Positions 2,306 to 63,705 of a stretch of DNA of 64,000 bases are shown here, piece after piece (positions within the stretch are counted from its first letter, which is position 1; the number at the start of each line of letters is the position of its first letter). The notes below the pieces were generated by a model. The model was given only the letters and a program-made list of their open reading frames with translations. It had not been told where the DNA came from and did not search any database. The DNA is from Octopus sinensis (lineage: Eukaryota), in assembly GCF_006345805.1 (NCBI RefSeq), contig NC_043002.1, positions 19,654,001-19,718,000 of the forward strand, read 5' to 3'. The position numbers and the translations under genes are program-made.

Positions 2306-4481
2306 GTAAGTATATATATATATATATGTAATTATTGTTGAATTTCTGTTTGGAATATTGGAAAATTTTTATTCCTGTTTTCGTTTGTTTTTCTTTATAA
2401 AGTTTAATATTAATTTTAGTAATATACATATTCTATAGTGTTGAAATATGCTTATTTCTTAAAATAACAACGTGACTTTTCCCTCTGTTGAAGTATTTAA
2501 AAGTTTTCGTGTTTTTTGTTACTTCAGGCAAATATAAAAATTCTTAAAAATACTTCAAAAAATAAATATCATGATTGGTTATTTTTACATTTAAACTGGA
2601 TATTTAAATTTGTGCTGGCAAACAAAATAGACACCCTCGACTGAATAGGAAACCCCAATCTACGGTTTTATATAACACTAACCGAAAAATAATTTACTTT
2701 ATATTATTTTTTGAAATTACTAATTGTTAACGTAGGAGTCTGTACGTGGTCGTTCGATCTGCTAGAAAGAAATACCAGGAAGGATACAATATAGTCTAAG
2801 GTACAAAATTTTCAAAATAGGGAGTCTGCTGACTACAAACGAAAATAGATAAAATAAAATAAAAAGACGGGAGGATTACGATTGGAAAGCTCTTACAAAA
2901 GACGGACATTAGGAAGACAACGAATTGTCCGGTCTTAAAGATATTCAACTTTTTAAAGGGAGAGCTAAACCCCTCCTTTAAATCAGTACATTTTAAAATA
3001 AGATTTTAATTTCGTCCCCATAATCGTAACCCCAACTCCTAGAACTTTGTTTCCTTTAACATTTAAAAAACAAATAAAATCCTTGCATGTACATAGGAAT
3101 CAACAGACTTCGTGTTTAGAAGATTTTCTGTTTTGGAGCTCAAGTTCTTGGATATCCAAAGACAGTATGTTCATAGCTTTAATCACATAGCATTATCATT
3201 CCCAAACACTAAGATACGTCTGCAACACTACCCAAAAAGACTTTGCTGTTTCCACTAGAAAACACGACAGCAATCTCCCTCGCAATAACTATTGGTCCGG
3301 TCCTTTCGAAAGAAATGTAACACCATTGTAGCGGGCTGGATGTGATGTGCCATATCAATTCGATATGAGTAGCCCACTACTAAATGTAGCGTGTAGATGT
3401 AACGCTGCAAGGTTCTCGTGTCAGAGTAACCAGTAAACATCGAAGAATCAACACTAAGAAAGAAGAAATATTATTTACATATGTTTATTCGTTTGCCCGA
3501 CAGATAAAGAGATAGTAGCAATTCTAGTGATAGTGACAAGAAGGATGGCTCGCTGGTTAGTAGCTGATAGTGTAGAAAAAGGTTGTCTGTCACCAGTGAA
3601 AGAGTAAGGAATGCACAGTGCTGACTAGAAAGGAAAGAAGGATAAAGGCAGCACTGGCATTGACCATGCTCAAATCGTGCTTTTTACGTGCCATCGGCAT
3701 GGCAGAAAAAAAAAAGTTGATTTGATCGACACACTGAAAGAAGCCTGTCTTTTGTGTGTCTTTCCTTGTCTTGATATCACATCATTGTGATAAATGAAAG
3801 TCACCATCAAACAGTATCTTTCATTTCTAGTCTTCCATAAAAACATGTCCAGCCATGGGAAAATATTAACTTGCTTGAAACATGTCAGGGTTGGTGACGA
3901 AGGGCATCTGGCCATAGAGAATCTACCTCAATGAATTCTGTTTGACCCATACAAGCATGGACAAGTAGATATTAAACCATTGATGAGGATGACACAAGGC
4001 CATAAATATTGTAGCAAAGGTCCAATCAATTTATTTTATCAACTCCAGAAGGTTGAAAACCAAAGTTGATCCCAGCAGGATTTGAGCTGGAAACAAACCT
4101 ACAACTAAATAAAAGTCATTTTTTAATGTTTTTCTGACTCTACCAAGCCATCAAAAATTCAATAAACATTTATATTAAATGCACTAAAACACCTTTTACA
4201 TAATATTCCTTGTTGAAATGGGTGTAGAAGGTCATCAAATATTTTCATTTTTAGTATTATATCAATTAGCTCTTTAAAATGAAGTTCTAAAATTGAATGT
4301 AATTATTTAATTCACTTCCTAAATTAGTTTTGGCCTAAAACAGCCTCACCTCCATCATTATTTTATATACTTCATTTTTATTTATATAATTTTTACTTAA
4401 TTTTTCATTTCCATATTTTTAGTTTTGTTTCCATTTTAAATTCGTATATTATAGCTTCATTTATTTATTTTCTTTTTTCAG

Positions 4482-5120
4482 AATGCAAACCCCAAGAGTT
4501 CAAACAAGAATGACAGACAGGCTTTCTTACTTTATTCTAGCTGTGAAAAGTTATTTGGAAGTATTGTGGCTAATTTCCAAACTAACCCCCAAATCCAAGA
4601 GTGTGCCATTATCCTTGGTTCCTCAGCTCTCAGCCCCAAAGAGGTGTTCCACATCACTTTTCCTCCTGCAGACTCTAGTCAACACTCACAAAAGCCCCTG
4701 TCTGCCAAAGACTGCAAGCGATTTCTTTTCTTACAGATTTTCGCAAAGGACCCATTCTTTAGTGGTTCAAGACTCCCGTGCACCAACATGCATGTGTTAC
4801 TGCTTGGCCCACGCCAGCTTAAGTTGACTGGCTTCTCTGCCAAACCTGTCTACAAACCTTCAAAACGTGGACAACATTATTACTTGAACTTATTACAAGA
4901 TAGTGACCCAGATGATGATGAAGTCTCTTTCCATCCTAAACACAACTACAGTCATGATTTGTCTGGGTTTGAACCACTCATGCCATCCAAGAAAGATGAC
5001 AGTGTCCTGAGTGATCTTCATGCCTTAAACCTTTTGGACGATGATGACGACTCTCAAATATGGTATCAGGCAAACATTAGTGTAAAAGGTTATCACATAA
5101 CTATGCCAAAACATTTATAG
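4482..5120 (+). CDS. MAD2L1BP: MAD2L1-binding protein (p31comet)-like, coding exon 2 (terminal)
   Basis: A polypyrimidine tract and CAG end at 4481, and phase 0 matches exon 1. ECAIILGSSALSPKEVF resembles p31comet LILLGGNALSPKEFY, and the C-terminal IWYQANISVKGY resembles IWFQAPVTFKGF. The spliced product is 273 aa. Confidence 0.88.
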   Translation, partial: NANPKSSNKNDRQAFLLYSSCEKLFGSIVANFQTNPQIQECAIILGSSALSPKEVFHITFPPADSSQHSQKPLSAKDCKRFLFLQIFAKDPFFSGSRLPCTNMHVLLLGPRQLKLTGFSAKPVYKPSKRGQHYYLNLLQDSDPDDDEVSFHPKHNYSHDLSGFEPLMPSKKDDSVLSDLHALNLLDDDDDSQIWYQANISVKGYHITMPKHL

Positions 5121-13223: not shown

Positions 13224-13458
13224 TACAGGGAAAAGCGTTTCGTTTCATTTAAATATATTAGAAACAAACTATGGTCAAGTTTAACCTTACAAGTATTTTT
13301 TCTATTTCCTTACTAGTCCTTTAAATTTAGTCTGGAATAATAGCATTCCTAAATTCATTAGTTCATTGATAATTGAAGACATTCACTGCCTCGCCATAGT
13401 GTAGTGATGATATACTTTGAAGTTAAGTTCATGGGAATACTGTTGTAATAGACAAGGT

Positions 13459-14278
13459 CATCAACATCATCATTTAGCGTCCGTTTTCCATGCTAGCATG
13501 GGTTGGACGGTTCAACTGGGGTCTGGGGAGCCCGAAGGCTGCACCAGGCCAGTCAGATCTGGCAGTGTTTCTACAGCTGGATGCCCTTCCTAACGCCCAC
13601 CCACTCCGAGAGTGTAGTGGGTGATTTTATGTGCCACCGACACAGGTGCCAGACGGCTGGCGAACGGCCACGCTCGGATGGGTTTTTATGTGCCACCGAC
13701 ACAGTGCCAGACGAGGCGGCAGACGGCCACCTCGGATGGTGTTTTTATGTGCCACCGACACAGGTGCCAGATGAGGCTGGCGGACGGCCACGATCGGTGT
13801 GTTGTTACGTCCCCAAAGCACGGAGGCCAGTCTATGCGGTACTGGCTACGGCAGTTCGGATGATTTTCTTGTGTGCCACCGGCACTGGTACCACAAAGAT
13901 ACAAATTCCATTGAGTTCACTATTTTGATTTGTTTTGATTTGATTTTCACTTGCCTCAACAGTTCTTCACAAGTGTCACAAGAGGAAGGTATGCACAGGT
14001 GGACTGACTACGTCCCAGGTAGGGGCCACGGGTTATGGCCTGACTAGTCTTGCCGGGTCTTCGGATGGTGTTTTTATGTGCAACCGACACAGGTGCCAGA
14101 TGAGGCTGGCGAACGGCCACGATCGGATGGTGTTTGTTACGTGCCCACAGCACGGAGGCCAGTCGATGCGGTACTGGCTACGGCCATGTTCGGATGTTTT
14201 CTGTGTGCCACCGGCATGGTACCACAAAGATACAAATCCATTGATGTTCATCTATTTTGATTTGATTTGATTTGATTT
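13459..14278 (-). mobile_element. RTE-type LINE 3' UTR copy with ~58-bp unit array and internal ~215-bp duplication
   Basis: (CAT)n tail and GGATGCCCTTCCTAACGCC motif. TTTTATGTGCCACCGACAC units are repeated, and 13733-13945 recurs at 14061-14278. Confidence 0.8.
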
Positions 14279-15214: not shown

Positions 15215-16320
15215 AAAATAGAAATTGCCACATGGGAGTGCCAAGACAGAAATTTCCATGTAGGAGTTTCCTCATCAGAAATTGTGACATGGGAGTTTCA
15301 AGAAGGTAATTTTGACATGTGGTTTCAAGAAAGAAATTACTACATGCAAGTTTCAAAGCAGAAATTGTCACATGGAGTGCCATGATAAAAATTGCCTCAT
15401 GGAAGTGACAAGACAGAAATTGTTACATGGGAATGACAAGATAGAAATTGCTGCATGGGAGTAAGTGCTAAGACAGAAATTTCCACATGGATCAACATCA
15501 GTGGGAATTGCAGCTGTGGTTAAGCGAACCATCCGATTGTGGTTGTTGCCGGCGCCGCCCCGTCTAGCCTCCGTGTCGGTGGCATGTAAAAGCACCATCC
15601 GTTTGTGTTCGTTGCCAGCCTCGCCTGGCCCCCATGCCGGTGACACGTAAAAGCACCATCCGTTCGTGACTGTTTGCCAGCCCTGTCTGGCCCCGTGCCG
15701 GTGACACGTAAAAGCACCATCCGTTTCGTGGCCGTTTGCCAGCTCTGTCTGGCCCCGTGTTGGTGGCATGTAAAAGCACCATCCGTTCGTGTCCGTTGCC
15801 AGCCTCGCCTGGCCCCCGTGCCGGTGACACGTAAAAGCACCATCCGTTTCGTGGCCGTTTGCCAGCTCTGTCTGGCCCCGTGTTGGTGGCACGTAAAAGC
15901 ACCATCCGTTCATGTCCGTTGCCAGCCTCGCCTGGCCCCCGTGCCGGTGACACGTAAAAGCACCATCCATTCGTGGCCGTTTGCCAGCTCTGTCTGGCAC
16001 CTGTGCGGGTGGCACGTAAAAAGCACCCACTACACTCACGGAGTGGTTGGCGTTAGGAAGGGCATCCAGCCGTAGAAACACTGCCAGATCTGACTGGGCC
16101 TGATGAAGCCTTCCAGCTTCACAGACCCCAGTTGAACCGTCCAACCCATGCTAGCATGGAAAACGGACGCTAAATGATGATGATGATGATGATGTGACAA
16201 CATAGAAGTTTCCACAGGGGAGTGCTATGACATAAGTTGCCGTATAAGAATCTCAAAATAAAAATTGTCACATGGGGAGGCCAAAAAAGAAATTGTTGCA
16301 TGGAATGCCATAACAAAACA
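15215..16320. repeat. Degenerate ~28-bp minisatellite (AGAAATTGCCACATGGGAGTGCCAAGAC-like), split by an insertion
   Basis: About ten units at 15215-15490 and about four more at 16195-16320, on either side of the RTE 3'-end insertion. Confidence 0.7.
15491..16194 (+). mobile_element. RTE-type LINE 3' UTR copy with an 8-core, ~61-bp tandem array
   Basis: AGCACC core at 15591, 15652, 15713, 15775, 15836, 15898, 15959 and 16022, followed by GGCGTTAGGAAGGGCATCCAGCCGTAGAAAC and a (GAT)n tail. Confidence 0.85.
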
Positions 16321-27362: not shown

Positions 27363-27547
27363 TTTATAATAGTAATTATACTATGACAAAATGTTTCAGA
27401 AGTTCCTTTAGAATTAAAATTTTAAAATACCCCCTGAATCACAACTTATAAATCCACACAAATTCTTGAGTATTTTTCAAAATGAAATGAAATGCATAGG
27501 CGGTGTTGCTAGGAATATAATAATGAAAGGATTAAGGTGTGATATAC

Positions 27548-27946
27548 CTGTAATGGCCACTTTGTAGACAGCTCGGTACCTCTGGTCAGGACTGTCTCCA
27601 GGAATGTAATCTCCAAGACCGATGGTTGTGAGCGATATAAAACAGTAATAGAATCCATCCAGGTAGTTCCAGTTTGGTTCAAGGACTGAGAAAATGGCAG
27701 ACGGAATGAGGAAGAACAGTGTAATGATGATTATGCCAACAAGCATCAGGTGCAACATCCGGATGTGAAAGACACGATACAGGTGACCAAGTTTCTGTAG
27801 CATCCAGTGCAGCAACGCTGTGACTGGGATCATCAGTCGTTCAACTAATGCCGTGAACATGATGAGGGTCAAAGGGATGCCAATCAGAGCGTAGATTATA
27901 CAGAATCCTTTGCCAACATCTGACAGCGGAGTCACTCGACCATAAC
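27548..27946 (-). CDS. KCNK1: Two-pore-domain K+ channel (TWIK/KCNK1-like), coding exon 3 (end of P1, M2, M3, P2)
   Basis: Acceptor TTTTCAG and donor GTATAT; 399 nt, phase 1 to 1. Encodes GYGRVTPLS, YALIGIPLTL and WNYLDGFYYCFISLTTIGLGDYIPG. A GLG second filter is typical of the TWIK subfamily. Confidence 0.95.
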
Positions 27947-30125
27947 CTGAAAAGGTAAAAAAAAGAAAAGAAAATAACTTATACATCTAAGTATGTATGT
28001 ATAAAAGCGTGTGTGTGTTGTAATTGATTAGCTCCAGTTCAGTCCTGACTTAGCACACTTGTGATTGAATGTGCTCCAACCATGACTCTCCTACCTTTTA
28101 TTCCGACTTAGTGTATCTAACATATCATAATCCAGTGTTCGCTTCCTTTTTCAAGATGATAGGAAGTGATTTTAGGGAGATTTGACTGCTCTATCTAGCA
28201 CATCAAGCAACTTTGTAGAAGCTCCCATTTGCTTACTGCAGAGATGACAAAATGGTTAAGAATTTCAGTTAGCAATTAATAGATTCCAGGCTCAATCTTA
28301 CTCTTGGGAAGTATCTTCTAGCAGAGCCTTATACCAATCCAAGCCTTGTGAATGGTACGGGGACAGAGGTACTGAAGATCATCAAAAGAAGCCCAGCTTT
28401 GTCCCACACATTGTCAGTTTCATTCTACCTGAAGACTATGTCAAGAATACAAGTATCCTTAACCACTAACACTCATCATCATCATATATCATATGCTTTT
28501 TGCACTGGATTGATGACACTACATCAAAAGTCTTTCCAATTAAGCACAGGTTCGGTCTGATGAAGCCATAGCATCACTTTGTTCTGACTTTCTCATAGTG
28601 TTTTCTTTACAGAGATGTTGAAATGGTTTGCCATTACCTTCCGCAACTAGATGGCCGATAGTACACAAGGAGCTCAGGTTTTTAGTTCAGCTGGATTCAC
28701 AAGAGTAGCAAGCTATTCAAGTGGGGGATCCAGTTTAGTCACCAACCACCTGACTATGGAGCAGGTGGTACTGGTTTATATGGTACCAGTAGCAAGTCAC
28801 ATCAGACTGTGATGAGATCTCTGACTTAACAATAACCATTAACACAAAGATTCAATAAATTGATTAAATAATTGGAATACTTATTGCTGATGTCAACTTG
28901 AAATTTATTTAATTTAATTTGTAAGCATGTTTAAGTAAAAGAAAATGGATTTTCCATATTTAATGGTATATAAGACACAATTTTTTCCCTCAAAAATTCC
29001 ATAAAAATATCACCCCAGGTCCTGTATGCAAAGTAGTGTCTCTTTTTCTGAATACGTGTTACTGAAATTGGGGTATGTCTAATATGCCCATATGTCTTTT
29101 TTATGTCATCAAATATGGGTACATTACATATAGTCAAGTGTGGAGGCACGTAGCTTAGTGGTTAGGGTGTCAGCATCATGATCGTAAGATTGTGGTTTCG
29201 ATTCCTGGACCAGGCGATGCATTGTGTTCTTGAGCAAAACACTTCATTTCACATTGCTCCAGTCCACTGAGCTGGCAAAAATGAGTAAAGCTGCGATGGA
29301 CTGGCATCCTGTCCAGCTGGGGAACACATATGCCATTGAAACCGGGAAACTGGGCCCATGAGCTTGGCTAGGCTTTAAAAGAGCACATTTATTCTTCATA
29401 CATATAGTCAAGCACTAGGATGTTTATATGAACTGGTTTGTGACATTAGGGAAATACTGAATAACTATCCCCCTTGAGAGTAAACTTGTTTGTTACAGGT
29501 TTCCAAATAACAAGGTGAACTATCTTTCATGGAACTATGAATATTGTCAAGATAGCTGGGGAAACTGAGGTACATAGTCTTAAATGTGCTGTCAAAATAC
29601 TTAAATGAAACAATCTACAATGTATGTGAACCATGAATTAGTATAGTTCAATATCATATACACTCAGCTATGTCTTCTTTACATGTTACACATACACATA
29701 TATAGACATCAAGTCTTCCCAATTAAGCAGAGGTTCTCTTGTCAGATGAAATCATAGCATTACTTCGTTTTTACTTTTCCATAGTGTTTTCTTAACAGAG
29801 ATATTAGGGTGGTTCGTCACTGCCTTCTCCAGCTGGATGACCATTGGCCCACAAGGCAATACATTATTTACATGTAACTTTTCTTGTATGTTAACATTTG
29901 TACATCCATTTTACAATGCAATTAACTCAGTGATAACAGAGACCCTCTTTATTTGCTGCTCTACTTGCAGTATTATTCCTTATCTCACAGTGATTCCTAT
30001 ATGAAACTTTCCTTTCATATGAGAACAGAAATGCTCTCCTTTGTAGTCAAAAGCATCAGAAATTTTCATAATTTCTCCCAGGCATTTCAAGCCATAGTGA
30101 AAATGGGGTACTATCTTGATAACAT

Positions 30126-36117: not shown

Positions 36118-36422
36118 CATCATCATCATCATCATCATCATCATTTAGCGTCCGCTTTCCATGCTAGTATGGGTTGGACAGTTCAACTGGGGTCTGGGAA
36201 GCCAGAAGGCTGCACCAGGCCCAGTCTGATCTGGCAATGTTTCTACGGCTGGATGCCCTTCCTAACGCCAACCACTCCATGAGTGTAGTGGGTGCTTTTA
36301 ACGTGCCAGACGGGGCTGGCAAACAGCTACAGTCAGATGGTGCTTTTTACGTGCCACCGGCACAGGGGCCAGGTGAGGCTGGCAATGGCCACAATCGGAT
36401 GGTGCTTTTTACGTGCCACCAG
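36118..36422 (-). mobile_element. RTE-type LINE 3' UTR copy with three array cores
   Basis: (CAT)n tail, GGATGCCCTTCCTAACGCC and three GGTGCTTTT(T/A)ACGTGCCA units. Confidence 0.8.
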
Positions 36423-40191: not shown

Positions 40192-41975
40192 CTCATCATC
40201 ATCATCATCATCATCGTTTAACGTTCGCTTTCCATGCTAGCATGGGTTGGATGATTTGACTGAGGGCTGCTGAACCAGATGGCTGCACCAGGCTTCAATC
40301 TTGATCTGGGAGAGTTTCTACAGGTGAATGCTCTTCCTAACGCCAACCACTCTGAGAGTGTAGTGGGTGCTCTTATGTGCCACCGGCATGGAAGCCAGTT
40401 AGTCACTCTGGCAACGATCCCGCTGGGATGGTGCTCTTAGCACCCTACTAGCACGGGGCACAAGTGCCAGTAAGGCACACTTGAATGGTGTCTTTTATGT
40501 GCCACTGGCACAGAAGCCGGTTAGCCACTCTGTCAACGATCACACTCATATGGTGCTCTTTGCACCCCACTAGCATGGATGCCCGTCATTGAATTTGATT
40601 TCGATTTCACTTGCCTCAACAGGTCTTCGCATGCAGAGTTTAGTGTCTAAAGAAGGAAAAGGTATGCATAAGTGGGCTGGTTACGCCCCTGACCACAGGT
40701 TATGGTCTCATTTGGCTTGCTGGGTCTTCTCAAGCACAGAATATTTCCAAAAGTCTCAGTCACTAGTCATTTCTTGGTGAGGCCTAAAATTCGAAGGTTG
40801 TGCTTCATCACTTCATCCCAGGTCTTCCTGGGTCTACCTCTTCCACAGGTTCCCTCAACCGCTAGGGTGTGGCCCTTTTTCACACAGCTATCCTCATCCA
40901 TTCTTACCACATGACGATAGCAGCACACATCTGATGCTTCTTAGGTCGAACTATTCTCTCAAGGTACTTACACTCTGCCGAGTATGAACACTGACATTAC
41001 ACATCCATCGGATCATACTGGCTTCATTCCTTGTGAGCTTACACATGTCCTCAGCAATCATGGCCCATGTTTCACTGCCATGTAGCATGGCTGTTCATAC
41101 ACATGCATCATACAGTCTAACTTTTACTCTGAGCGAGAGGCCCTTTGTCACCAGCAGAAGTAAGAGCTCTCTGAACTTTGCCCAGGCTATTCTTATTCTA
41201 GCAGCTACACTTTCAGCACACCCTCCCCTGCTACAGGCTTGGTCACCCAGGTAACGGAAGCTATCAACTACTTCTAGTTTTTCTCCCTAGAATGTGGCGG
41301 AAGTTGTTCTCTGCATTTTCAGTGTTTATTGCTCCTGAGCATCAGCCACATACAAAAACTATCTTCCCAGTTAGCCTTCCTTTGATATTACTGCACCTCT
41401 TATGTGTCCATAGCTTACACTGGGTACATCTTATAGAGTTTCTACCTACGCCTTTCTACAGATTGAGCAGGGCCATCTACCTGAAGGGATTTGTGATTTG
41501 CCTGCCTCCCTACTTATTAGGACTTTGGTTTTAGCTAGGTTGACTCTAAGGCCCTTCGATTCTAATCCTTGTTTCCACACTTGAAACTTCTCCTCTAGTT
41601 CTGATAGTGACTCAGCAATTAGAGCAAGGTCATCAGCATAGAGGATCTCCTAGGGGCATCATGTCTTGAATTCCTCTGTTATTGCCCAGAGGACTATGAT
41701 AAATAGGAGGGGGCTGAGGACTGAACCTTGGTGGACCCCTACCTCTACAATGAATTCTTCAGTGTACTCATTGCAAACCCTCACCTTACTGACAGAGTCC
41801 CTGTACATGGCTTGCATGGCTCTCACTAACCATTCATCAATCTCTAGTTTCCTCATTGACCACCAGATAAGGGATCGGGAGGGACCCTGTCAAAGGCTTT
41901 CTCTGTCAATGAAAGCCAGGTACAGGGGTTTATCTTTGGCTAGGTATTTCTCCTGCAGCTGTCTTACCAGAATAC
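40192..41975 (-). mobile_element. 5'-truncated RTE-clade LINE: RT fragment, PHD-like finger, 3' UTR array and (GAT)n tail
   Basis: GVHQGSVLSPLLF, EILYADDL (about 41625-41650) and GLRVNLAKTKV, with HGSETW downstream. The ORF is contiguous with the array-bearing 3' UTR at 40370-40590 and the tail at 40192. Confidence 0.88.
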
Positions 41976-48083: not shown

Positions 48084-48255
48084 CATCATCATCATCATCA
48101 CCATCATAATCATCATCATCATCATCGTTTAACGTCCACTTTCCATGCTAGCAGGGGTGTTCGATTTGACTGAGGACTGGTGAACCAGATGGCTGCACCA
48201 GGCTCCAATCTGATCTGGCAGAGTTTCTACAGCTGGATGCCCTTCCTAACGCCAT
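48084..48255 (-). mobile_element. Short (GAT)n-tailed RTE 3'-end copy at the inversion junction
   Basis: (CAT)n-CGTTTAACGTCCACTTTCCATGCTAGCA...GGATGCCCTTCCTAACGCCA. Confidence 0.75.
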
Positions 48256-49222
48256 TTGGATCGCAATCTTCATCATCATATGTTCCCTTGAAGTCGAAAG
48301 ATGGAAATGAGGTTATTAAAGATCCTTCTGGAATAATGAATAGATGGAGAGAACACTTTGCAGATCTTTTCCACAATCCATCTGTAGTGAACATGGATGT
48401 CATAAACAACATTCTGCAAAGAGAGGTAGTGCAACACATGGATAATACACCTTCCATTGAAGAAGTAAATCTGGCATTATGTAAACTGAGACCAGGTAAA
48501 GCTCTTGGATTGGATGGCATTCCAGTTGAAATTCTGAAAGCAGGTAGGGATCATATTTCATCTGAAATTCAAAACCTGATAAGTCAAGTTTGGAATGGAT
48601 CTTCTGTGCCACAAGAATGGATAAATGGCATTCTGATCCCTGTATACAAAGTTAAGGGCCTGAAAGCAGTGTGTGGTAATTCTAGAGGGATAATTCTTCT
48701 GGCACATACCAGTAAGAAACTTTCAAGGATCATGTTAGATCGTCTTGTTGAGAATGTGTGTCCACATGTGATTCCTGAAGAACAGTGCGGTTTCAGGCCT
48801 GAGTGAGGAACAATGGACATGATAATTTTTGTGAGGCAGGTTCAAGAGAAATGCTTAGAGGAACAAATGCCACTATACCAAGTCTTCATAGATTTAACTA
48901 AGGTATTTGACATGGTAAACAGGGAGTCACTGTGGATTGTTTTGCATAAACTTGGTTGTCCAATGCATTTTGTGAGCATATTTAAAAAACAACACAGAAA
49001 CATGAAAGGTCAGGTAGTCCTTTGATGCTGAGCTATCTCATGAATTTTCAGTGGACAACAGTGTCAAACAAGGAGATATTCCTGCCCCTACACTTTTCTC
49101 TGTTTATTTTGCTGCATTACTTTGGTAAGTTTTTAAGGATTGCAACAGGGGAATCGGAATCAAATTTCAGACATCTAGTCATATTTTTAATTTGACCTGG
49201 TTTAACTGCAAAGCAAAGATGT
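48256..49222 (+). mobile_element. RTE (BovB-like) LINE, upstream RT segment, inverted relative to its 3' part
   Basis: RWREHFADL, GKALGLDGIPVE, CGNSRGIILL, PEEQCGFR, FIDLTKVFD, VKQGDIPAPTLF and FNLTWFNCKAK. Confidence 0.9.
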
Positions 49223-53102: not shown

Positions 53103-54200
53103 AGGCGGTGTAAGGTGGTGAGCTGGCAGAAATGTTAGCATGCCGGGCGAAATGCATAGCGGTATTTCGTCGGTCGCTACGTTCTGAGTTCAAATTCCGC
53201 CGAGGTCGACTTTGCCTTTCATCTCTTAGAGGTCGATAAAATAAGTACCAGTTGCATACTAGGGTCGATCTAATCGCTGGTCCCGTCTCCAAAAATTTCG
53301 GGCCTTGTGCCTAGAGCAGAATAGATTATAAGGCGGCGAGCTGGCAGAAACGTTAGCACGCCGGGCGAAATGCATAGCGGTATTTCGTCTGCCGTTACGT
53401 TCTGAGTTCAAATTCCGCCGAGGTCGACTTTGCCTTTCATCCTTTCGGGGTCGATTAAATAAGTACCAGTTACGCACTGGAGTCGATGTAATCGACTAGC
53501 CCCCTCCCCCATCATTTCAGGCCTTGTGCCTATAGTAGAAAGGATTATTACAAGACGGTGGAGCTGGCAGAATCATTAGCACACTGGACAAAATGCTTAG
53601 CGGCATTTCGCCCTGTCACTACGTTCTGAGTTCAAATTCCGTCGAGGTCAACTTTGCCATTCATCCTTTCGAGATCGATAAAAAAAAGTACCAGTCGAGC
53701 ATTGGCGTCAATGTGATCGACTAGCCCAGTGGTTCTCAATCTGGGTCCATATGGCCCTTGGGTATCCATTTAAGATTCTATTAAAATTTGTGTAATAAAT
53801 TGGTTAAACTTCTACAAAACACAAAATATTTTAATTTTTTATACAATTCCTAATAAGAGTTTTTCTCATATATATACGTATGTATGTATGTATGTATGTA
53901 TGTATGTATGTATGTATGTATGTATGTATGTATGTATGTGTGTGTATGTATGTATGTATGTATGTATGTATGTATGTGTATGTATGTATGTATGTATGTA
54001 TGTTATGTATGTATGTATGTATTATGTATTTATGTATGTATATATATGTGTGTGTGTGTGTGTGTATACAGTAAATTATGGCGATCCAATTGGGTAAAAG
54101 ATGATCAAAATAGGAATCAAAGGGGCTCATAGGCAACAAAAAAAATGATTGAGAACCACTGGACTAGCCCCTTCCCGTAAAAATTTCTGGCCTTGTGCCA
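53103..54200 (+). mobile_element. Three head-to-tail Nin/Deu-domain SINEs
   Basis: Heads at about 53115, 53332 and 53555. The third copy is split by the hAT MITE and resumes at 54162. Confidence 0.88.
53727..54161. mobile_element. hAT (Charlie-like) MITE carrying an expanded (TATG)n tract
   Basis: Perfect 15-bp TIR CAGTGGTTCTCAATC / GATTGAGAACCACTG, with an 8-bp TSD GACTAGCC at 53719-53726 and 54162-54169. Confidence 0.92.
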
Positions 54201-57280: not shown

Positions 57281-57438
57281 CAGCGTTCTTTCAGTAACAA
57301 ACGATGATCGATGTCACATCTCAAAAGACAACCACTAGATAACGTTGTGAAGTGTATTAATTTGAATTACCATCCATATTCTATCTTATTTATATACAAA
57401 ATACTACAATTAGCCATCATTTTTGATGGCACAGGGCC

Positions 57439-57765
57439 ATCATCATCATCGTTTAACGTCCGTTTTCCATGCTGGCATGGGTTGAACGGTTTGACTGAGG
57501 ACTGGCGAGCCAGTTGGCTGCACCAGGCTCCAATCTGATCTGGCAGAGTTTCTACAACTGGATGCCTTCCTAATGCTAACCACTCCAAGAGTGAAGAGGG
57601 TGCTTTTACGTGCCACTGGCACAAGGGCCAGTCAGGCAGTACTGGCAATGGCCACGCTAAAATGGTGTTTTTTTCAATGCCACTTGTACAGGAGCCAGTC
57701 CAGTGACACAGGCAACGACCTCGCGCGAATGTTGTTTTTCATACGTCACCGGCACAAGTGCCAAT
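57439..57765 (-). mobile_element. RTE-type LINE 3' UTR copy with three array cores
   Basis: (CAT)n tail, GGATGCCTTCCTAATGC and GGTGCTTTTACGTGCCAC-like units. Confidence 0.8.
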
Positions 57766-60977: not shown

Positions 60978-61860
60978 ATCATCGTCGTCATCATCATCAT
61001 TTAGCATCCATTGTCCATGCTGGCATGGGTTGGATAGTTTGACCAGGGCTGGTAAGCTGAGGGGCTGCACCAGACTCTAGTCTTATTTGGTATGGTTTCT
61101 ATGGCTGGATGCCTTCCTAACACCAACCTCAAGTGTAATGAGTGCTTTTATGTGCCACTGGCATTGGTGTCAGTTTGCATGACATCAATAGTTGCCATGA
61201 TTATCATTTCATTTGGCTCAATGGGTTTTCTTCTCAAGCATGGCACACTGCCAAAAGTTTTGGTCATTTGTCATTACCTCCAAGAGGCCCAGAGCACAAA
61301 AGGTGCTTTTTATGTGCCAACAGCAGAGGTACCAGTTACATGACACTGACAATGACCACAGCTATGATTTCACTTGGTCTGATGGGTCTTCTTGAGCATG
61401 GCATACCGCCAAAGGTCTCAGTCAATAGTCATTGCCTTCATGACGCCCAACGTTTGAAGATCATGCTTCACCACTTTGTCCCATATCTCCTGGATTTCCC
61501 TCTTCCACAGCTTCCTTCCACTGGTAGAGATCGGCACATCTTCACACAGCTGTCCACATCCATACACATTACATGACCATACCAATACAGTTGTCTCCCT
61601 TGTGCACCACATCTGATGCCTCTTATGCCCAGCTTTTTCTCTCAAGATGCTTACACTCTGTTGTATATGCACACTGTCATTACACATCCAGTGAAGCATA
61701 CTGGCTTGATTTCTTTCAAGTCTACGCATGTCCTCAGCAATCACAGCCCATGTTTCACTGCCATGTAACATGGCTGTTCATACACAGGTATCATACAGTC
61801 TGCTTTTCATTCTGGGGGAGAGGCCTTTTGTTACCAACTGAGGTAGGAGCTCTCTGGACA
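60978..61860 (-). mobile_element. Second 5'-truncated RTE-clade LINE (ORF end and 3' UTR)
   Basis: MLHGSETWAVIAEDMRRLERN, homologous to 40750-41200, with a (CAT)n tail at 60978 and a duplicated 3' UTR block. Confidence 0.8.
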
Positions 61861-62699: not shown

Positions 62700-63238
62700 A
62701 CATGTTGGTGGCAATTAGGGCCTCACAGAGGAAATGACGAAGACCGAGACCTCTGAGATATGCTGTGAGTCCATGGCCCAAAGGACGGCCTGCTTTGCTA
62801 ACCTTGGATCATGGAGTGACCCGCTGTTCTTGAGGAAACCTATTGAGTCAACTACGTTAACACCAACATCAAAATGAAAATCAAATGGAAATTTTAGTTA
62901 AGATACCCATGCCAGTGACATGTAAAAGGCACTGTCCAAATGTGGCAGATGCCAGCGCCGACAGACTGGCGTCCATGTTGGTGACACGTAAAAGCACCAA
63001 CTGATTGTGGCCATTTGCCAGCCTTCTCTGGCCCCTGTGCTGGTGGCACGTAAAAGCACCCACTACACTCTCGGAGTGGTTGGCATTAGGAAGGGGCATC
63101 CAGCTGTAGAAACACTGCTAGATCAGACTGGAGCCTGGTGCAGTCTCCTGGCTTCCCAGACCCCGGTAGAACCATCCAACCCATGCTAGCATGGAAAACG
63201 GACGTTAAACGATGATGATGATGATGATGATGATGATG
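62700..63238 (+). mobile_element. RTE-type LINE 3' UTR copy with three array cores
   Basis: GTGACATGTAAAAGGCAC, GGTGACACGTAAAAGCACC and GGTGGCACGTAAAAGCACC units, followed by a (GAT)n tail. Confidence 0.8.
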
Positions 63239-63705
63239 AAAATGTAGAATCTTTGAGAAAATGTAAAATAAATTGTTTTAACAGTGAATTGCAAAGTGAA
63301 TTGCATATAATTATTAGGTTAAAAAAAAAACCTTGGATGGGAAAAAAAAGTTGAAAGACTACCTGTGGGACACGAACCTGCATCTCCTTCACCTTTTAAT
63401 GTTTATTGTATTCAAATTCTCTGTCGTCTTCCTCTTCACCTACCCTACTACATCTCCACACCACTCCCCATTTGCATAATATTCCCTTGGCAGCCATCTG
63501 TTACACAGGATTAACTAGAGAAATCACAGCTTACATTGTCTGCTAATCCCCACTTGGAGACCATCGTTTTATTTGCTGATTGAACAGACATTTTTCTTGA
63601 AATAAGATTAAAAGACAAAGGAGAAAAGAAAAATGCAAATTTTCTTCAAATTCCATAGATTTTTGTTTTTTTTTGTCTTGCAATTCTACTTCTTGGTTGC
63701 TATTT

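What the first reader, a model, noticed from the sequence alone, without database searches (positions are those of the whole stretch)
15520..16030. Retrotransposon-borne ~61-bp array: constant core and constant stem with hypervariable loop
Seen: eight cores GGTGRCAYGTAAAAGCACC spaced 61-63 bp apart. Between cores a GCCAG-loop-CTGGC stem is kept while the loop alternates (CCTCGC versus CTCTGT), giving a ~123-bp higher-order dimer. Other copies keep the same stem with different loops: ACGG and ATGAGG (about 13650-13780), ACGGGG and GTGAGG (about 36305-36385), TTAGTCACT (about 40395), TCAGGCAGTA (about 57630), CGCCGACAGA and CCTTCT (about 62950-63030). Core number ranges from 0 to 8. The array is physically linked to an RT ORF at 40192-41975. 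Inference: a structured, expandable RNA module of an RT element, superficially CRISPR-like, possibly for RNP assembly, processing or targeting. I do not know of a description of it, but cannot exclude a Repbase/Dfam entry.
Basis: partly seen in the sequence, partly recalled or inferred. Interest (0 to 1): 0.75.

Follow-up and report, generated by a model that had tools for sequence, protein, structure and literature searches.

The report
Retrotransposon tail built from leader pseudoknots
The repeat array is the tail end of a very abundant jumping gene (an RTE-type LINE); its constant part is a predicted small RNA knot that related elements carry in front of their gene and that this lineage likely moved to the back and multiplied by copying slips, so it is not a CRISPR-like memory.

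Summary
The eight cores are real (61-62 bp apart). They form the 3' UTR of a 5'-truncated copy (15490-16195) of a LINE with one 1059-aa endonuclease-RT-PHD ORF and a (TGA)n tail; one junction 27-mer occurs 30,782 times in G000. The RT at 40.7-42.0 kb is a separate broken copy. The constant part across old and young subfamilies is a ~26-nt unit that can fold as an H-type pseudoknot, followed after the last unit by a conserved GGAAGGGCATCC block. In related RTEs from other organisms that block lies in the 5' UTR, 32-46 nt before the AUG (10 of 11), and covaries; three relatives carry the same pseudoknot with compensatory stems just upstream of it. Here the 5' UTR is 607-bp monomers without the block. 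Best reading: a 5'-leader module relocated to the 3' end (bipartite-RTE layout) and expanded by slippage. Against structure in the array itself: no covariation within the genome (p=0.56), ordinary folding energies. Function untested.

The parts
15490..16195 (+). 5'-truncated copy of an RTE-type LINE (3' UTR only), inserted in a 28-bp minisatellite; no target-site duplication seen
   Evidence: 5' part matches the region upstream of the array in L006; tail and (TGA)n; 28-bp repeat 15220-15490
15519..15571 (+). degenerate first unit (core decayed, long-loop class, stem imperfect)
   Evidence: same sequence in L006
15572..16027 (+). array of eight ~26-nt pseudoknot candidates (S1 YRTGY/RCAYR, S2 GGTG/CACC, A-rich loop 3) at 15572, 15633, 15694, 15756, 15817, 15879, 15940, 16002
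   Evidence: coordinates; pair tables; cross-lineage pairs
   Evidence: 735 of 885 units genome-wide perfect, 2 compensatory
16033..16045 (+). short hairpin CACTC/GAGTG between last core and block
   Evidence: a hairpin at the same slot in L192
16050..16085 (+). conserved RTE 5'-UTR block (bulged stem with loop AGGGCA, A-rich linker, possible second pseudoknot strand TGCC), here in the 3' UTR
   Evidence: [quoted passage not shown]
16137..16169 (+). RTE-type 3' terminal stem-loop (RT recognition tail, inferred)
   Evidence: profile of 13 tails from related elements scores 21-24.5 bits on four subfamilies, shuffles at most 4.2; z -1.79
16175..16195 (+). (TGA)n terminal microsatellite
40197..41973 (-). 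separate, older, broken copy: RT residues 631-1059 with stops and frameshifts (40711-41973), own short array and tail
13458..14230 (-). copy of another subfamily (loops CCTCRT and long class; two partial copies in tandem)
36124..36421 (-). truncated copy, three cores, with the recurrent stem-to-core deletion
57438..57765 (-). truncated copy of an older subfamily, three cores, long loops
62830..63239 (+). truncated copy, three cores
60980..61855 (-). old copy with a broken RT C-terminal fragment (61373-61855), degenerate cores and tail

Best explanation
The array is the 3' UTR of a 5'-truncated copy of a young, very high-copy RTE-type LINE, and its constant unit is a predicted H-type pseudoknot that likely came from the 5' leader of this RTE lineage, was likely relocated to the 3' end with the adjacent conserved block, and was likely multiplied by microhomology slippage. 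Shown: architecture ORF - array - hairpin - block - RTE tail - (TGA)n in all subfamilies examined; inheritance of unit order by retrotransposition; the block and, in three relatives, the same pseudoknot upstream of the AUG in other RTEs; absence of the block from the sampled 5' monomers. Inferred: relocation by capture of a bipartite (5' UTR + 3' tail) derivative, through template switching or read-through; copy-number change by slippage at the repeated TGGCAC/GGTG motifs. Inferred function: the last pseudoknot plus block would act as a cis element that brings the RNA to the ribosome or the RT protein (as it is kept by bipartite SINEs), while the extra upstream units would be largely redundant copies under weak constraint, not guides.
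For: Array directly after the RT stop in L003, L030-L037, L051-L063, L372-L381. 39 other best copies 94-96% identical over the 634 bp (40 scored of 4892 candidates). Loop identical by position in 26, 25, 27 and 25 of 29 copies at units 1, 2, 3, 5 from the 3' end. 30,782 exact junction matches, control 0. 96 scored RT hits 99-100% identical, 10 with an unbroken 1059-aa frame; Pfam EN + RVT_1 + weak PHD. Block upstream of the ORF in 13 of 79 metagenome loci by pattern (most of the 79 lack their 5' end), 32-46 nt before the first in-frame ATG in 10 of 11, 91% of cells paired with two two-sided pairs, 0 of 500 shuffles. [quoted passage not shown] Pseudoknot descriptor: 3 hits in 79 loci (215,192 bases, both strands), all just upstream of the block, 0.05 per shuffled set; S1 transversion pairs T-A/A-T and C-G/A-T. 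Two of the three (L184, L192) share a 100/99 branch with the six G000 proteins. Older subfamilies repeat the core alone at 26-28 bp (11 of 30 multi-core tails with spacing of 52 or less). A stem-to-core deletion at the TGGCAC microhomology recurs: 13 true cases among 18 pattern hits, against 1081 full units. No block in the 5' regions of 13 near-full copies; 607-bp monomers instead.
Against: Within G000 the S1 arms do not covary among 17 recurrent variants (66 of 85 Watson-Crick, shuffle mean 65.7, p=0.56; 9 of 17 carry a mismatch); per-copy excess at pairs 1-2 can come from CpG decay and relatedness, and pair 5 is below expectation. Unit folding energies are ordinary (z -0.12 to +0.99; ViennaRNA ignores pseudoknots). 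The descriptor was loosened after I had seen the three relatives, the alignment has only 7 hand-picked rows, and it found 0 hits in 6 held-out loci, one of which has a 5' block. The third relative (L210) lies outside the branch (midpoint root only). No relic of an earlier tail after the ORF scored above 0 bits, so the capture event itself is not seen. All sampled long copies start inside the monomers, so a block further upstream is not excluded. No function was tested.
Confidence: 0.6

Rival explanations
1. Ordinary LINE 3'-UTR minisatellite: the sequence may descend from a 5' leader, but no part of the array folds or works any more; conservation reflects recent duplication and homogenisation.
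For: No covariation among recurrent variants; stem almost never compensated (2 of 885) and broken in 4 of 18 types; z-scores near 0; unit number ranges from about 2 in the youngest subfamily to 21; the same element also has 607-bp and 48-bp tandem repeats in its 5' UTR, so it slips everywhere.
Against: Paired-looking and A-rich positions differ 0.02-0.17 among types while unpaired ones differ 0.28-0.58 (the profile was seeded on these motifs); the core persists from subfamilies at about 83% to 99% protein identity with changing period.
Confidence: 0.27
2. Every unit is a working structured module: tandem pseudoknots give multivalent RT-protein or ribosome binding, or block 5'-3' exonucleases and yield 3'-coterminal RNAs that are themselves retrotransposed.
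For: Repeated amplification of the same core with different spacers in independent subfamilies; near-invariant S2 and A-rich loop; most genomic copies are short 3' pieces (depth gradient, 79).
Against: 5' ends of copies are scattered: about 11 of about 31 hand-read in-array junctions fall in the 26-nt core, which is 42% of a unit (rough); the youngest subfamily has the fewest clean units; S1 mismatches are fixed in many variants.
Confidence: 0.09
3. CRISPR-like or guide array: constant repeats processed into unit RNAs whose loops specify targets.
For: Constant core with regular spacing; loop is the most variable part.
Against: Loops are 6-10 nt, 17 sequences recur in five or more loci, inherited by position; 30,782 dispersed copies; the only ORF is EN-RT.
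Confidence: 0.01
4. The unit is a variant self-cleaving ribozyme (twister- or HDV-derived), since ribozymes occupy the same slot in related leaders.
For: Twister-P1 matches immediately upstream of the block in L202 (E 3.5e-9) and L239 (E 1.9e-4), both below the gathering score; loose word likeness of the core to the twister 3' half (read from the consensus).
Against: No Rfam match overlapping any copy at E up to 5; twister L4/L1 residues and an HDV-type J4/2 are absent on reading; cleavage inside a 3' UTR would separate ORF from tail.
Confidence: 0.03

Closest known systems
RTE-clade LINEs of the RTE-2_EBu / RTE-4_EBu type (Kojima 2020, PMC7245038)
   Same: Single EN+RT ORF, microsatellite end, same GGAAGGGCATCC block (seen in the paper's supplement).
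   Different: There the block is in the 5' UTR behind a ribozyme-like sequence and the 3' UTR is short; here it is in a 0.6-1.4 kb 3' UTR behind an array, and the 5' UTR is 607-bp monomers.
Bipartite non-autonomous RTEs and SINEs with RTE 5'+3' parts (Kojima 2018, PMC5786205; SINE1-1_EBu, SINE2-1/9/10_EBu)
   Same: 5'-UTR piece joined to the RTE 3' tail; the hagfish SINEs keep this very block.
   Different: Here the bipartite layout is the 3' end of an autonomous LINE, and its upstream pseudoknot is tandemly amplified; no free bipartite family with a fixed 5' end was seen.
RTE-2_OV (Petrosino 2022, PMC9115989)
   Same: RTE-clade LINE from Octopus with an intact single ORF.
   Different: 1109 aa with a C2H2 finger and a 3' UTR that is mostly microsatellite (passages); ours has 1059 aa, a PHD-like insert within the RT and a structured 3' UTR. 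Motifs not found in 8 searched supplement files; 4 were not searched.
Ribozyme-bearing RTE leaders (twister in Perere-3, PMC8501958; HDV-like in RTEs as cited in PMC5786205 and PMC6765202)
   Same: Structured RNA in the RTE leader tied to processing and cap-independent translation.
   Different: The repeated unit lacks ribozyme cores; it corresponds to the slot between ribozyme and block.
Tandem monomers and VNTRs in retrotransposon UTRs (mouse L1 5' monomers, SVA VNTR; recalled, no call)
   Same: Subfamily-specific repeat order, copy-number change by slippage.
   Different: Unit here is a predicted pseudoknot with homologues outside the lineage.
CRISPR arrays
   Same: Only the look: constant repeat at regular spacing.
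   Different: No unique spacers, no polarity, no cas genes, eukaryotic dispersed repeat.

Membership tests
RTE-clade LINE | single long ORF with AP-type endonuclease and RT | tested here: met
   1059-aa frame, PF03372/PF14529 + PF00078; best solved relatives L1 ORF2 and R2
RTE-clade LINE | 3' end in a short microsatellite after a stem-loop tail | tested here: met
   (TGA)n; tail profile 21-24.5 bits; the profile comes from unnamed relatives
RTE-clade LINE | shared UTR sequence with named RTE families | tested here: met
RTE-clade LINE | RT phylogeny groups with named RTE references | not testable with these tools
   tree holds only unnamed relatives; no Repbase or Dfam library on hand
RTE-clade LINE | no ORF1 | tested here: inconclusive
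   5' region is tandem monomers and the true 5' end was not reached
RTE-clade LINE | short 3' UTR (usual, recalled; seen in relatives) | tested here: not met
   0.6-1.4 kb here against short tails in most of 40 relatives read; a derived trait, not a clade criterion
Bipartite non-autonomous RTE | 5'-UTR segment joined to the 3' tail | tested here: met
   block 16050-16085 lies 50 nt before the tail
Bipartite non-autonomous RTE | lacks the ORF and has its own fixed 5' end | tested here: not met
   5' ends ragged; long copies continue into the RT ORF
RTE-2_OV | 1109-aa ORF with C2H2 finger; 3' UTR mostly microsatellite | tested here: not met
CRISPR array | unique spacers added at one end | tested here: not met
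CRISPR array | associated cas/processing genes | tested here: not met
   only EN-RT in the element; window ORFs scanned were RT, K2P channel, p31comet
CRISPR array | processing into unit-length RNAs | not testable with these tools
   no raw RNA reads offered
Twister / HDV-like / hammerhead ribozyme | conserved catalytic core and fold | tested here: not met
   no Rfam match on any copy at E up to 5, while twister was found in relatives' leaders; cores absent on reading
H-type pseudoknot | two crossing stems with a short loop 1 and A-rich loop 3 can form | tested here: met
   all eight cores allow S2 4 bp and S1 3-5 bp
H-type pseudoknot | compensatory changes | tested here: inconclusive
   present across lineages (n=3, post hoc), absent within G000
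H-type pseudoknot | fold shown by probing or structure | not testable with these tools
   needs SHAPE/NMR

The most novel reading that the evidence does not exclude
RTE LINEs carry an undescribed two-pseudoknot leader element at a fixed 32-46 nt before the AUG that recruits ribosomes or the RT after ribozyme cleavage; this lineage moved it to the 3' end when it adopted monomer promoters, where it still loads the RNA in cis, and selection or slippage multiplied its first pseudoknot, helping the family reach tens of thousands of copies.
Probability: 0.25. Interest if true: 0.72.

Novelty: new variant of a known kind. Interest (0 to 1): 0.45.

Why it matters
The array as first read is not a new guide system. 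What remains of interest is a conserved, covarying leader block at a fixed distance from the RTE start codon, kept by bipartite SINEs, with no Rfam family and no description found in my searches. Why bipartite RTE elements keep a 5'-UTR piece is left open in the passages I read (PMC5786205). This family is a natural transplant of that piece to the 3' end of an element with intact, near-identical copies, which makes the question testable in reporter and retrotransposition assays. It also explains a major share of dispersed repeat DNA in this genome.

Tried and rejected
Rfam on the window (E up to 5): nothing on any copy; gathering-level scan of 20 relatives: 0. Viral contigs: no protein relative; 39 pattern matches to the block were chance hits in unrelated sequence. 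Sequencing runs: no RNA holder listed on record; only contigs, so no statement on expression or unit-length RNA. Tail-only search with 16030-16176 returned nothing (very common words are skipped). Pseudoknot as RT roadblock: automated junction mapping was confounded by (AT)n and nested repeats; hand reading shows no clustering. Relic tail after the ORF: not detected (one search gave no hits through a wrong option). Origin of the linker+hairpin from the tail: only suggestive (14, 9, 136, 1 and 178 of 300 shuffles reach the score in five tails, at differing positions). Region table was off by one column and was redone. Twister, HDV, hammerhead and pistol readings were tried by eye against recalled consensus features and dropped. 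Literature searches found no description of the array or of the pseudoknots; Repbase, Dfam, subscription papers and unsearched supplements may hold the family. Ruminski 2011 was not held.

Full report
1. Observation. The core pattern has 15 matches in the window with up to three mismatches, 0.05 expected. Seven exact cores lie at 15578-15964 and an eighth with one more A at 16008-16027, spaced 61-62 bp, with seven GCCAG-6nt-CTGGC stems between them; TRF gives periods 61 and 123. The loops read CCTCGC, CCCTGT, CTCTGT, CCTCGC, CTCTGT, CCTCGC, CTCTGT. The RT at 40711-41973 is on the other strand, 24 kb away, broken, and has its own array.

2. What the array belongs to. The window is G000:C6:19654001-19718000 in a 2.7-Gb genome; that it is an octopus is my inference from recalled repeat content, not a tool result. 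The 40 best of 4892 candidates match the 634-bp array plus tail at 94-100%. Longer copies run upstream into an RT frame. A 436-aa RT query gave 96 scored hits of 108,067 candidates at 99-100% identity, 10 with an unbroken 1059-aa frame; Pfam finds endonuclease, RVT_1 and a sub-threshold PHD. One 27-mer at the last core occurs 30,782 times, reversed control 0. The window copy starts at 15490, as shown by its match to L006, and is a 5'-truncated 3' end. All ten further loci checked, at about 83-99% protein identity in their best segments, have the order ORF, cores, block. The last 42 nt score 21-24.5 bits against a profile of 13 tails from related elements, shuffles at most 4.2.

3. Loops are inherited, not acquired. 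In 29 copies the loop at units 1, 2, 3 and 5 from the 3' end is the same in 26, 25, 27 and 25; further 5' the same few alleles are reshuffled; core number is 8-21 in this set, which was selected for long arrays. Across 230 loci, 149 loop strings occur, 17 in five or more loci, in two length classes. In its favour, the stem arms differ by 0.08 and 0.02 among types, against 0.58 for the loop, 0.51 for the spacer and 0.28 for the linker, though the profile was seeded on these motifs. Older subfamilies repeat the core alone with 26-28 bp periods (11 of 30 multi-core tails have spacings of 52 or less), and others use periods of 66, 90-112, 134 or 208. The constant element is therefore the core, not the stem.

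4. The core as a pseudoknot. With six upstream bases the core reads S1(5) - 1 nt - GGTG - S1'(5) - A-rich 6-7 nt - CACC, the layout of an H-type pseudoknot (general knowledge). Within G000 the evidence is conservation only: among 17 recurrent variants S1 pairs no better than shuffled partners (p=0.56) and 9 carry a mismatch, mostly at a stem end; S2 counts there are biased by the search pattern. Single units fold no better than shuffles (z -0.12 to +0.99).

5. Relatives outside the genome. 588 metagenome stretches encode relatives; 79 loci were kept. Forty 3' ends read have no array and mostly short tails, and the core pattern has no hit in the 79. The block that follows the last core here lies upstream of the ORF in 13 loci, 32-46 nt before the first in-frame ATG in 10 of 11. 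On 19 rows its six-pair bulged stem is 91% paired, with G-C/T-A/C-G and C-G/T-A exchanges, 0 of 500 shuffles (relatedness not controlled). By eye its loop can pair with a downstream TGCC-like strand in about 10 of 14 non-G000 rows. A pseudoknot descriptor hits three places in 215,192 bases, all sense and just upstream of the block (L184, L192, L210), 0.05 per shuffled set; S1 differs by transversion pairs. The descriptor was loosened after seeing them, and found nothing in six held-out loci. Other leaders hold other structures in that slot: twister-P1 in L202 and L239 and compact pseudoknot candidates in 8 of 12, about 7% in shuffles. In a 32-row RT tree (26 of 28 relatives and 6 of 12 G000 loci had a long enough open frame; midpoint root) the G000 proteins form one branch inside a 100/99 group that includes L184 and L192; L210 lies outside.

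6. The element's own 5' end. Thirteen near-full copies have the block only behind the ORF or in flanks, and their 5' region is 607-bp tandem monomers, up to more than three, each copy starting at a different point. The true 5' end was not reached.

7. Mechanism. Shown: architecture, inheritance, homologous block in other leaders. Inferred: a 5'-UTR segment (pseudoknot, hairpin, block) was joined to the RTE tail and attached behind the ORF, as by capture of a bipartite derivative; no relic tail was found. Slippage is supported by a deletion between two TGGCAC words that recurs in 13 cases (18 pattern hits, 5 false on reading; 1081 full units) and by duplications of many sizes. Function is inferred from position before the AUG and retention in SINEs: ribosome or RT loading by the last core and block, with extra units redundant. 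5' truncations do not cluster at the core (rough), which argues against a roadblock.

8. Literature. [quoted passage not shown] PMC5786205 (parts 1-3 of 5, supplement search): bipartite RTEs are common; the Ceph-domain piece is a different sequence, block not found in the supplement. PMC9115989 (passages; 8 supplement files searched, 4 not): RTE-2_OV differs. PMC8501958, PMC6765202, PMC5737381, PMC4824008, PMC4758252, PMC6007223: passages only. PMC13282606: first third, 13 recently active RTE families in O. vulgaris, no sequences seen. Nine searches found no description of the array or pseudoknots; Repbase and Dfam could not be checked and probably hold the family.

9. Verdict. A real array, an ordinary carrier (RTE-type LINE), a rejected CRISPR analogy, and a less ordinary anatomy: a leader module at the 3' end with its first predicted pseudoknot amplified. 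New variant of a known kind; interest 0.45.

Noticed in passing
L193:35-105, L199:130-198, L231:215-290, L367:3930-4005: A shared leader motif (stem with loop TGCCTT, variable hairpin, AAAGGCTAGG, further stem) upstream of the block in several related RTEs, duplicated in L199; looks like a pseudoknot with varying stems; no Rfam match in the three loci scanned.
   Followed up: no
L202:583-673, L239:333-412: Twister-P1-like ribozymes below the Rfam gathering score directly upstream of the block.
   Followed up: partly
L208, L209, L216, L221, L223, L227, L238, L256, L261: A short dispersed element that begins just upstream of the block and, in L216 and L261, ends in an RTE tail: a free bipartite RTE in these metagenome contigs.
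   Followed up: partly
L051-L063, L362-L364 (5' regions): Youngest subfamily has 607-bp tandem 5' monomers, like a monomer promoter, and in L053 a further 48-bp repeat just before the ORF.
   Followed up: partly
L051 ORF residues 799-842: PHD-like finger inserted inside the RT region; the same domain order is common among 2156 homologues. No paper on it found in one search.
   Followed up: partly
window 15220-15490 and about 16200-16320: 28-bp minisatellite into which the copy inserted, apparently without target-site duplication.
   Followed up: no
window 48174-49016 (+): Fragment of a more distant LINE RT (32% to the family protein) with a tail-only copy inserted next to it at 48109-48254.
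   Followed up: no
window 27477-27986 (-) and 4455-5120 (+): Host coding stretches: a two-pore potassium channel exon (PF07885) and a p31comet-like ORF (PF06581).
   Followed up: no
window 53120-53727: Tandem 218-bp repeat of a SINE-like element, 2.8 copies.
   Followed up: no
L366-L371: Six prokaryotic MAG contigs encode this eukaryotic LINE protein, likely assembly contamination.
   Followed up: no
many copies, e.g. L304, L322, L344-L346: 5' junctions of truncated copies are often preceded by (AT)n runs, suggesting a target preference or untemplated additions.
   Followed up: no
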